Of a stretch of 15,951 bases of DNA, positions 9,977 to 10,878 are shown piece by piece. The DNA is from a virus, in the UHGV virus genome UHGV-0230172; one strand, 5' to 3'. Within the stretch, counting starts at the first letter, position 1, and each line of letters opens with the position of its first letter. The position numbers and the translations under genes were made by a program. The notes under the pieces were generated by a model. That model saw only the letters and a program-made list of their open reading frames with translations, was not told the DNA's origin and did not search any database.

Positions 9977-10164
9977 GTGGGGTGTCCTATATGTTGTTTA
10001 CTCTAATTTGAGTAATTGAAGTTTACGCAAAACCTAGCTTTCAGCAAGCAATACAGCACAAAAAAATCATGTAAATTTGCGTCTATTTTTATCTACCGGA
10101 AAAATGCTCAACAACTTTAGAGAAAAAATAGCAATACCAAATCAAACCAATTGCTGCTTCGCCT

Positions 10165-10878
10165 CTACCCAAACGTCTCTTCAGGCCACTGACTAGCGAT
10201 AACTTTCCCCACAACGGAACAACTCTCATTGCATGGGATCATTGGGTATTGTGGGTTTAGTGGCTGTAGAAACACCTGACCGCTATCCCTGATCAGTTTC
10301 TTGAAGGTAAACTCATCACCACCAAGTCTGGCTATACAGAAATCGCCTGGCTCAACAGCCTGCTCAGGGTCAACCAGAATTAACATCCCGTCAGGAAAGC
10401 TGGGCTTGGATCCTGTTGGTGCGGTCATGGAATTACCTTCAACCTCAAGCCAGAATGCAGAGCCACTGGCTTTTTTGGTTGTGCTTACCCATTTCTCCGC
10501 ATCGCCTTTGGTAAAGGTTCTAAGCTCAGGCGAGAACATCCCGGCCTGAACATGAGAAAAAACAGGGTACTCATACTCACTTCTAAGTGACGGCTGCATA
10601 CTAACCGCTTCATACATCTCGTAGATTTCTCTGGCGATTGAAGGGCTAAATTCTTCAACGCTAACGTTGAGAATTTTTGCAAGCAATGCGGCGTTATAAG
10701 CATTTAATGCATTGATGCCATTAAATAAAGCACCAACGCCTGACTGCCCCATCCCCATCTTGTCTGCGACAGATTCCTGGGATAAGCCAAGTTCATTTTT
10801 CTTTTTTTCATAAATAGCTTTAAGGCGACGTGCGTCCTCAAGCTGCTCTTGTGTTAATGGTTTCTTTTTTGCGCTCAT
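10165..10878 (-). CDS. cI: Repressor cI (lambda-type)
   Basis: 237 aa, [54 protein letters not shown] ... [10 protein letters not shown] matches lambda cI along its length as I recall it; ATG abuts oR3/pRM as in lambda. Confidence 0.97.

What the first reader, a model, noticed from the sequence alone, without database searches (positions are those of the whole stretch)
10141..10180. Mosaic breakpoint exactly at the cI stop codon
Up to the cI C-terminus (…QWPEETFG) and in the DNA just downstream (CCAAACGTCTCTTCAGGCCACTGACTAGCGATAACTTTCCCC) the sequence tracks lambda as I recall it. Lambda-like sequence ends within a few bases past the stop, the stop itself is TAG where I recall TGA in lambda, and rexA is absent. 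It is a clean example of module exchange at a gene boundary and defines the left edge of the imported rex-slot cassette.
Basis: partly seen in the sequence, partly recalled or inferred. Interest (0 to 1): 0.45.

Follow-up and report, generated by a model that had tools for sequence, protein, structure and literature searches.

The report
Variable gene slot boundary after cI
The lambda-like repressor gene cI in this prophage ends where a known swappable gene slot begins; here the slot holds two uncharacterised genes instead of lambda's rexA/rexB, an ordinary example of a known hotspot.

Summary
Identity to lambda (98.2% through cI, cro and the operators) stops at window 10169, the second base of cI's last codon. 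The wobble base and stop differ (GGG-TAG here, GGC-TGA in lambda), and rexA and rexB are absent. An 892-bp cassette (9277..10168) replaces them. It carries a 73-aa ORF and a 177-aa DUF2335 membrane protein, and it ends exactly at the tIMM terminator stem.

The interpretation needs correcting. This is not a private crossover at a stop codon. It is the population-wide edge of the known variable locus downstream of cI (Degnan 2007). In 113 IMG/VR contigs carrying the last 23 nt of cI, 42 different sequences start at this position.

That cI end travels with the cassettes. In about a third of loci it is a non-coding stub behind unrelated repressor genes, and the wobble base plus stop track the cassette. 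The window is identical to another prophage across the stop (9245..10335) and to ev099-like phages from 10167. Homologous crossovers in the conserved flanks therefore explain this phage.

Cassette function is unknown; exclusion of other phages is inferred from position only. The kind is known and this is a new member. Interest is modest.

The parts
10165..10878 (-). cI repressor gene with lambda immunity specificity, 237 aa. It has HTH_3 and Peptidase_S24 domains and a TAG stop.
   Evidence: Searches give the ORF and translation. One search gives the Pfam hits. It is 98.2% identical to lambda and 100% identical to the ev099 / E. coli 214-4 allele from 10167.
10169..10191 (-). Last 23 nt of cI (CAGTGGCCTGAAGAGACGTTTGG). 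This is a conserved boundary sequence ('stub') shared by heterologous repressor contexts. Lambda identity ends at 10169.
   Evidence: It is found both as a gene end and as a non-coding relic behind at least 5 unrelated repressor families. It always lies immediately upstream of the cassettes.
10165..10168 (-). Wobble base of the last Gly codon plus the stop codon (G+TAG). These are the first 4 nt that differ from lambda (C+TGA). They track the cassette, not the repressor.
9277..10168 (-). The 892-bp cassette that occupies the rexAB slot.
   Evidence: No lambda or phage DNA match. It is 99.7-100% identical in 21 of 5426 complete E. coli genomes.
9977..10164 (-). AT-rich 188-nt spacer (GC 0.35) between the cI stop and ORF73. 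Its promoter-proximal half is conserved across genera.
   Evidence: There is no stable RNA fold (z 0.16) and no Rfam hit.
10020..10047 (-). Candidate internal promoter TTGCTG-N16-TAAACT. This is inferred and weak; it falls below the scan threshold.
   Evidence: The TTGC and AAACT positions are invariant in the E. coli / Enterobacter / Cronobacter / Pectobacterium alignment A2. The consensus scan did not call it.
9755..9976 (-). ORF73, a small protein of family phrog_26284. An AGGA ribosome-binding site lies at 9985-9988. The ORF overlaps the next gene by 59 nt.
   Evidence: It is conserved as a protein at 40-99% identity, in the same position, in four genera.
9280..9813 (-). A 177-aa DUF2335 (PF10097) protein. 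It has a basic N-terminus, a helical soluble part and a C-terminal two-helix transmembrane hairpin (residues about 121-140 and 145-166).
9246..9276 (-). tIMM intrinsic terminator. The stem-loop is at 9255..9276 and the U-run extends to 9246. It is the conserved second boundary of the slot. The DUF2335 stop codon lies 3 nt upstream of the stem on the coding (minus) strand.
   Evidence: The GenBank Timm annotations in the homologous records support it. The motif is present in 73 of 121 IMG/VR loci.
10879..10978 (.). OR3-OR2-OR1 with PRM and PR. Only one mismatch (10955) to lambda. PRM is the presumed promoter for cI plus the cassette.
   Evidence: Features are annotated at homologous positions.

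Best explanation
Window 10168/10169 is the promoter-proximal edge of the variable accessory (defence) locus that lambdoid prophages carry between the repressor gene and the tIMM terminator, known in lambda as the rex slot. In this phage the slot holds ORF73 plus a DUF2335 membrane protein instead of rexA-rexB.

The boundary is a population-wide module border, not a one-off crossover. The last 23-27 nt of cI on one side, and the tIMM hairpin on the other, are short conserved boundary sequences that flank dozens of alternative cassettes. These sequences travel with the cassettes, even into phages with unrelated repressors, where the cI end persists as a non-coding stub.

This particular phage is most simply derived by homologous recombination, through either phage Red/RecT-type or host recombinases. 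One parent would be a lambda-immunity phage of the ev099 type. The other would be a prophage carrying the cassette. The crossovers would fall in 10167..10335 (the cI 3' end) and 9245..9262 (the left arm of tIMM).

The cassette lies on the cI strand, ahead of tIMM and with no terminator in between. It is therefore presumably transcribed in lysogens from PRM, possibly also from a weak internal promoter. By analogy of position, it probably provides a lysogen-benefit function such as exclusion of other phages.

Shown: the boundaries, their recurrence, the relic stubs and the identity blocks. Inferred: the recombination pathway, co-transcription and the cassette's function.
For: Boundaries relative to lambda are 10169 and 9276.

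Ten lambda-immunity phages carrying 8 different cassettes all diverge at the wobble base or stop of cI and at the tIMM stem.

A scan of IMG/VR for the 23-nt cI end gave 113 usable loci, 42 downstream sequence classes and 11-13 upstream classes. Conservation drops from 0.97 to 0.37 right after the stop.

About 50 of 145 loci have the motif as a non-coding relic. It lies 0-31 nt after the stop of unrelated HTH+S24 repressors.

16 cassettes occur with more than one upstream class, and the wobble base plus stop follow the cassette.

Three cassette-anchored scans make no requirement on the stub. In all 71 loci they found, the stub precedes the cassette.

The window is identical to EF7-18-51-type prophages over 9245..10335. 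It is identical to ev099 / E. coli 214-4 over 10167..11195 and 9131..9262.

In L023, homology to the window is confined to 9233..10195, which is tIMM plus cassette plus stub.

tIMM is also the second border in two heterologous immunity classes.

From the literature: the region downstream of cI is described as a variable defence locus and hotspot of mosaic diversity (PMC8585504; 10.1101/2024.02.24.581848, both citing Degnan 2007). Module exchange via short conserved flanking sequences has been proposed (PMC2327257 ref 9 = Clark 2001; PMC3029335). Red-beta needs about 30 bp (PMC3945230).
Against: - The first creation of each stub-to-cassette joint still needs a non-homologous event, which this model does not explain.
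- 23-30 bp is at the lower limit for efficient homologous recombination.
- The first IMG/VR scan required an exact 23-mer, so conservation inside it is by construction. The cassette-anchored scans only partly remove this bias.
- No transcription data exist. The spacer is 188 nt and untranslated, so Rho-dependent polarity could limit read-through from PRM.
- No defence-family hit was found for either protein (PADLOC, NCBIfam and PDB).
Confidence: 0.8

Rival explanations
1. A single illegitimate (non-homologous) recombination event in this phage's own lineage joined foreign DNA exactly at the cI stop codon. Selection for an intact repressor would explain the precision. This is the classic Juhala/Hendrix model and the first reader's implicit view.
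For: There is no similarity to lambda beyond 10169. Gene-boundary joints are the expected survivors of random joints (PMC3029335 and PMC2327257 summarise this model). Some such event must once have created the joint.
Against: The same joint, to the nucleotide, exists next to four other repressor types. The window is identical to those prophages for 170 nt across the stop, so no joint was made here in this lineage. Selection alone does not predict 42 cassettes starting within 1-4 nt of the stop.
Confidence: 0.08
2. The conserved ~27-nt cI end (CAGTGGCCTGAAGAGACGTTTGG + N + stop) is kept because it is a functional cis element for the downstream cassette or the cI transcript. Examples would be an RNA processing or stability site, or a protein or sRNA binding site. 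Its role as a recombination linker would then be secondary.
For: It is retained as non-coding DNA behind at least 5 unrelated repressors. At least 4 apparently independent upstream junctions fall within about 3 nt of the same 5' edge, CAGTGG. That is unexpected for random truncation of a 714-nt gene. All relic copies keep the stop triplet.
Against: No hairpin or Rfam family was found. The only variants seen in relic copies sit at former codon third positions, as expected if they are copied from coding alleles.
Confidence: 0.12
3. The cassette is an autonomous moron with its own promoter and terminator, inserted as a unit. Its position after cI would be incidental.
For: A promoter-like TTGCTG-N16-TAAACT is conserved across genera in the spacer. 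A terminator follows. DUF2335 genes with a small upstream ORF occur at other moron sites in phages MD8 and RAH1.
Against: The terminator is the resident tIMM shared by all cassettes, not cassette-specific. The promoter candidate fails the consensus scan. GC content is not distinct. All close homologues in five genera (Escherichia, Enterobacter, Cronobacter, Pectobacterium, plus Kluyvera by protein name only) sit directly after a repressor wherever context was read.
Confidence: 0.15

Closest known systems
Variable locus between cI and tIMM in phages with lambda immunity (Degnan et al. 2007, GenBank EF120455-EF120461). [quoted passage not shown]
   Same: The flanks are the same: the cI end on one side, and tIMM, OL/PL, nutL and N on the other. 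The strand is the same. The divergence points are the same as in HK244, HK542, HK544, CL707, mEp332, mEp234, HK97, ev099 and PhiR5_2.
   Different: The content differs. The ORF73 + DUF2335 pair is not in any of 50,697 phage records at DNA level. Only 1 of 5426 complete E. coli genomes (strain PD7) combines it with a full lambda-type cI.
Lambda rexA-rexB exclusion operon
   Same: It occupies the same slot and orientation. It is a two-gene unit ending in a membrane protein, placed to be co-expressed with the repressor in lysogens.
   Different: There is no sequence similarity to RexA or RexB. The membrane protein has 2 predicted transmembrane helices (from my own knowledge, RexB has 4). No exclusion phenotype is known.
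Short conserved boundary sequences of lambdoid phages. These are the linkers of the Susskind-Botstein modular theory. Clark et al. 2001 (HK620) is cited in PMC2327257 and PMC3029335.
   Same: Short sequences (23-45 nt) are shared by otherwise heterologous genomes exactly at module borders. Identity blocks end inside them.
   Different: Here one boundary sequence is the coding 3' end of a gene, which also survives as a non-coding stub and in nested stubs. I could not read Clark 2001 or Degnan 2007, so I cannot say whether this particular sequence was listed there.
BstA and HigBAC/TAC defence genes located downstream of prophage repressors
   Same: The genomic position is the same, as is the presumed sharing of the repressor promoter (PMC8585504; 10.1101/2024.02.24.581848).
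   Different: The proteins are unrelated, and no defence activity has been shown for the cassette here.

Membership tests
Variable accessory/defence locus downstream of cI (rex slot) | It lies between the repressor stop codon and the tIMM terminator, upstream of OL/PL, nutL and N. | tested here: met
   The cassette is 9277..10168. tIMM is at 9255..9276. OL/PL/nutL/N match lambda at 8594..9276.
Variable accessory/defence locus downstream of cI (rex slot) | Content is replaceable between homoimmune phages while both flanks stay conserved. | tested here: met
   There are 8 cassettes among 10 lambda-immunity phages and 42 classes in 113 IMG/VR loci.
Variable accessory/defence locus downstream of cI (rex slot) | It is co-transcribed with cI from PRM/PRE and terminated at tIMM. 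| not testable with these tools
   It is on the same strand, PRM is intact, and no terminator was predicted between cI and tIMM on the minus strand. No expression data are available.
RexAB exclusion system | It has homologues of RexA and RexB. | tested here: not met
   There is no DNA similarity to lambda 35825..37114. Pfam gives only DUF2335 for ORF177 and nothing for ORF73.
Short conserved boundary sequences (Clark 2001 / modular theory) | A short sequence is conserved among otherwise unrelated neighbouring modules at a module border. | tested here: met
   The 23-nt cI end sits next to 11 upstream classes and 42 cassettes. tIMM is present in three immunity classes.
Short conserved boundary sequences (Clark 2001 / modular theory) | Crossovers map within the conserved sequence. 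| tested here: met
   Identity blocks with the window end at 10191 (L016) and 10195 (L023). The wobble base plus stop follow the cassette across upstream classes. Stubs are present in 71 of 71 cassette-anchored loci.
Short conserved boundary sequences (Clark 2001 / modular theory) | It acts as a recombination focus in crosses. | not testable with these tools
   This needs phage-by-prophage crosses.
DUF2335 (Pfam PF10097) | The HMM score is above the gathering threshold. | tested here: met
   63.8 bits against a cutoff of 25, E 1.4e-17, residues 72-121. It also hits phrog_3996 at E 9e-43.
Moron (autonomous promoter-gene-terminator unit) | It has its own promoter and its own terminator, often with distinct composition. 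| tested here: inconclusive
   Only a sub-threshold conserved promoter-like motif was found. The terminator is the shared tIMM. GC is 0.43 against 0.46 for the window.
Known anti-phage defence systems (PADLOC-DB v2) | It matches a defence-system protein model. | tested here: not met
   There were no hits at E<=1 for either protein.

The most novel reading that the evidence does not exclude
The 3' terminal ~27 nt of the lambda-type cI gene, together with the tIMM hairpin, would form a dedicated pair of recombination linkers. These linkers let lambdoid prophages of different immunity types swap lysogen-expressed (defence) cassettes by short-homology recombination. Successive swaps of the immunity module would leave nested 'fossil' stubs of repressor 3' ends, including one in lambda's own cI-rexA spacer. 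Alternatively, the stub could be a still unrecognised functional cis element with a defined 5' edge at CAGTGG.
Probability: 0.45. Interest if true: 0.55.

Novelty: new member of a known kind. Interest (0 to 1): 0.33.

Why it matters
The finding as stated is an ordinary instance of a documented hotspot. Its value is mainly as a pointer.

First, the slot behind the prophage repressor is where RexAB, BstA and HigBAC-type defences sit. An uncharacterised and widespread two-gene cassette there is a reasonable candidate for a new exclusion function. The exact DUF2335 protein occurs in more than 2000 blocks of the public collection.

Second, the comparative data give an unusually clean, countable case for an old debate: homologous exchange at short boundary sequences versus random illegitimate joints. 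The case can be tested directly with Red-dependent crosses.

Tried and rejected
- DNA search of the cassette against phage records, distant mode: no match.
- tblastn of ORF73 against phages: no match.
- Searches for a function of either cassette protein: PADLOC, NCBIfam and PDB profile searches gave nothing useful.
- AlphaFold2 of the DUF2335 protein with an 18-sequence alignment: mean pLDDT 57. This is too poor for a meaningful fold search, so none was run.
- Rfam on the whole window: no hit.
- RNA folding of the 188-nt spacer: no better than shuffles, z 0.16. I therefore dropped the idea of a structured leader or attenuator.
- Consensus promoter scan of the spacer on the coding strand: no site.
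- In-frame read-through of the resident repressor into the stub: considered and rejected, because the stub lies 0, 1, 8, 21-24 or 31 nt after the stop, in different frames.
- Chi-like activity of CAGTGG or GCTGGTAA: considered, but these differ from the Chi octamer at 2 positions, so I did not pursue it.
- Compositional evidence for recent import: none.
- Degnan et al. 2007 could not be read. What it says is taken from papers citing it and from its GenBank records.

Full report
**1. What is at the coordinates**

The window is the integrase-to-replication part of a lambdoid prophage. Its genes, in order:
- integrase, 184..1365 (-)
- N, 8518..8850 (-)
- cI, 10165..10878 (-)
- cro, 10979..11179 (+)
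- cII, 11298..11576 (+)
- a DUF2740 gene, an O-like gene and a Toprim/DnaB-like gene

cI encodes 237 aa ending QWPEETFG, with a TAG stop at 10165-10167. blastn against lambda NC_001416 aligns 10169..11300 at 98.2% and 8938..9276 at 90%, with nothing in between. At the joint, lambda reads TCA-GCC-AAACG on the plus strand and the window reads CTA-CCC-AAACG. The last base shared with lambda is therefore 10169, the second base of the final Gly codon. The wobble base and the stop both differ.

**2. What replaces rexAB**

The 892 bp at 9277..10168 have no DNA match in 50,697 phage records. They are 99.7-100% identical in 21 of 5426 complete E. coli genomes, where only a 'DUF2335 domain-containing protein' is annotated. 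Reading along the coding (minus) strand from cI, the cassette contains:
- a 188-nt AT-rich spacer;
- ORF73 (9755..9976), family phrog_26284, E 1.5e-39;
- a 177-aa protein (9280..9813) with a DUF2335 domain (PF10097, 63.8 bits; phrog_3996, labelled 'membrane protein', category moron). It has two C-terminal hydrophobic helices.

The two ORFs overlap by 59 nt.

ORF73 is a real gene. In Enterobacter, Cronobacter and Pectobacterium prophages, the DUF2335 protein is 59-82% identical to the window's. An ORF of 73-74 aa sits at the same relative position there and is conserved as protein at 40-78%.

The cassette ends 3 nt before the tIMM stem-loop (9255..9276), which is conserved in all compared phages.

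No family with a known function matched either protein. The AlphaFold model was too poor to use.

**3. The boundary is a population-wide border**

Ten lambda-immunity phages and prophages carry 8 different cassettes. These include rexAB, an NYN-domain gene, hicAB and several hypothetical genes. All share cI up to ...CCAAACG and differ from the wobble base onwards. At the other end they all diverge right after the tIMM stem.

Of these loci, 113 had enough flanking DNA to use. They fall into 42 classes by the 60 nt after the stop. Among class representatives, the majority-base fraction falls from 0.97 (last 10 nt of cI) to 0.37 within 4-10 nt. 73 of 121 loci have the tIMM motif 341-2087 nt further on. 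Most of the others run off the contig.

This is the variable locus described by Degnan et al. 2007. [quoted passage not shown]

**4. The crossover that made this phage need not be at the stop codon**

The window is identical to the prophage of E. coli EF7-18-51, and to several others, from 9245 to 10335. That block covers tIMM, the cassette and the last 170 nt of cI. Those prophages have a different operator-binding domain and a different cro.

The window is also identical to phage ev099 and to E. coli 214-4 from 10167 to 11195 and from 9131 to 9262. Those carry an NYN-domain gene in the slot.

The simplest history is two homologous crossovers, one in 10167..10335 and one in 9245..9262. The parents would be an ev099-like lambda-immunity phage and a cassette donor. 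Consistent with this, the tIMM loop bases (9263-9268) go with the cassette.

**5. The cI end travels with the cassettes**

In prophage L023, an unrelated 235-aa repressor ends ...EAREWLKSS-TGA. Then, 21 nt later, the non-coding sequence AGCCAGTGGCCTGAAGAGACGTTTGGGTAG is followed by this same cassette. Homology to the window is limited to 9233..10195.

In Cronobacter, a ~50-nt stub of a cI-like 3' end follows another unrelated repressor.

Over all collected loci, about 50 of 145 carry the 23-mer as a non-coding relic. It lies 0, 1, 8, 21-24 or 31 nt behind the stop of at least five different HTH+S24 repressor families. Further counts:
- There are 11 upstream classes and 42 cassettes, and 16 cassettes occur with more than one upstream class.
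- The wobble base plus stop follow the cassette rather than the upstream gene. The window's cassette has G+TAG in three contexts, and rexAB has C+TGA in three contexts.
- Three further scans were anchored in cassette sequence, so they placed no requirement on the stub. They returned 71 loci. In every one the stub (0-2 mismatches) precedes the cassette, in 3-6 different upstream contexts per cassette.
- tIMM is likewise the far border in two heterologous immunity classes.

[quoted passage not shown] The length is near the ~30 bp that Red-beta needs (PMC3945230).

The rival view is independent illegitimate joints filtered by selection. It remains necessary for the first creation of each joint, but it does not account for the recurrence. 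I cannot exclude that the stub is kept because it is itself a functional element. Four apparently independent upstream joints fall within about 3 nt of CAGTGG, which is odd for random truncation.

**6. How it probably works**

cI, ORF73 and DUF2335 are on one strand. PRM and the operators are intact, with one mismatch to lambda. No terminator is predicted before tIMM. The cassette is therefore probably expressed with the repressor in lysogens. This is inferred, not shown.

A motif TTGCTG-N16-TAAACT (10047..10020), conserved across genera, may add an internal promoter comparable to lambda pLIT. It is below the scan threshold.

A small soluble protein plus a two-helix membrane protein in the RexAB position suggests an exclusion or abortive-infection role. 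This rests on position alone. I put it at about 0.35.

**7. Verdict**

The feature is a typical member of a known hotspot, carrying a cassette that has not been characterised. The more interesting by-product is the evidence that the cI 3' end and tIMM act as portable boundary sequences. They leave fossil stubs, including one in lambda itself.

Noticed in passing
L001 (lambda NC_001416 37115..37226, the cI-rexA spacer): Lambda's own spacer after the cI stop starts with a 34-nt relic, GGCAAGGTGTTCTGGTCGGCGCATAGCTGATAAC. It is 28/34 identical to the real 3' end of an unrelated repressor family (...GRVFWSSHSW*) and translates as GKVFWSAHS**. Four cassettes share this relic and diverge right after CATAGCTG. 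A further-decayed copy lies between the L023-type repressor and the cI stub, so the stubs are nested.
   Followed up: partly
window 11298..11300: Lambda homology to the right ends exactly at the ATG of cII (the last aligned base is 11300). The window's cII is the 92-aa type (PF05269) rather than lambda's 97-aa type. This is a second mosaic joint at a gene boundary.
   Followed up: partly
window 11586..11618: A 33-nt island covers the ribosome-binding site and start of the first replication-module gene. It is 91% identical to lambda's cII-O junction and 100% identical in other prophages, while both flanks are unrelated. This is another candidate boundary sequence.
   Followed up: no
window ~10575 (cI residue ~101); L003 10396..11091: Prophages such as that of E. 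coli EF7-18-51 have a hybrid repressor. The lambda-like C-terminal domain (95-100% identical up to 10575) is joined at the hinge to a different DNA-binding domain, with a different cro. This is an intragenic joint at a domain boundary.
   Followed up: partly
window 10169..10194 and loci L126, L050, L124, L113: At least four apparently independent upstream junctions of the cI stub fall within about 3 nt of the same 5' edge (CAGTGG). This is unexpected if stubs were random truncations of a 714-nt gene. It remains unexplained; it could be a functional edge, deletion pressure or search bias.
   Followed up: partly
window 9755..9813 (T7 run at 9799..9805): ORF73 and the DUF2335 gene overlap by 59 nt in different frames, around an A7/T7 run. 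The overlap is conserved from Pectobacterium to E. coli. Pseudomonas phage MD8 also has a small ORF overlapping its DUF2335 gene, next to the integrase (L152). RefSeq does not annotate ORF73.
   Followed up: partly
window 10020..10047 (-): The promoter-like TTGCTG-N16-TAAACT has invariant TTGC and AAACT positions across four genera, inside an otherwise variable spacer.
   Followed up: partly
window 9263..9268: The loop bases of the tIMM hairpin differ between cassettes and co-vary with the cassette rather than with the PL/OL side. The stem is conserved.
   Followed up: partly
window 12718..14598: The replication module uses a 626-aa Toprim plus DnaB-like primase-helicase, preceded by a DUF2740 gene and an O-like gene, instead of lambda O/P. 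The same 626-aa architecture appears next to the Cronobacter copy of the cassette (L025).
   Followed up: no
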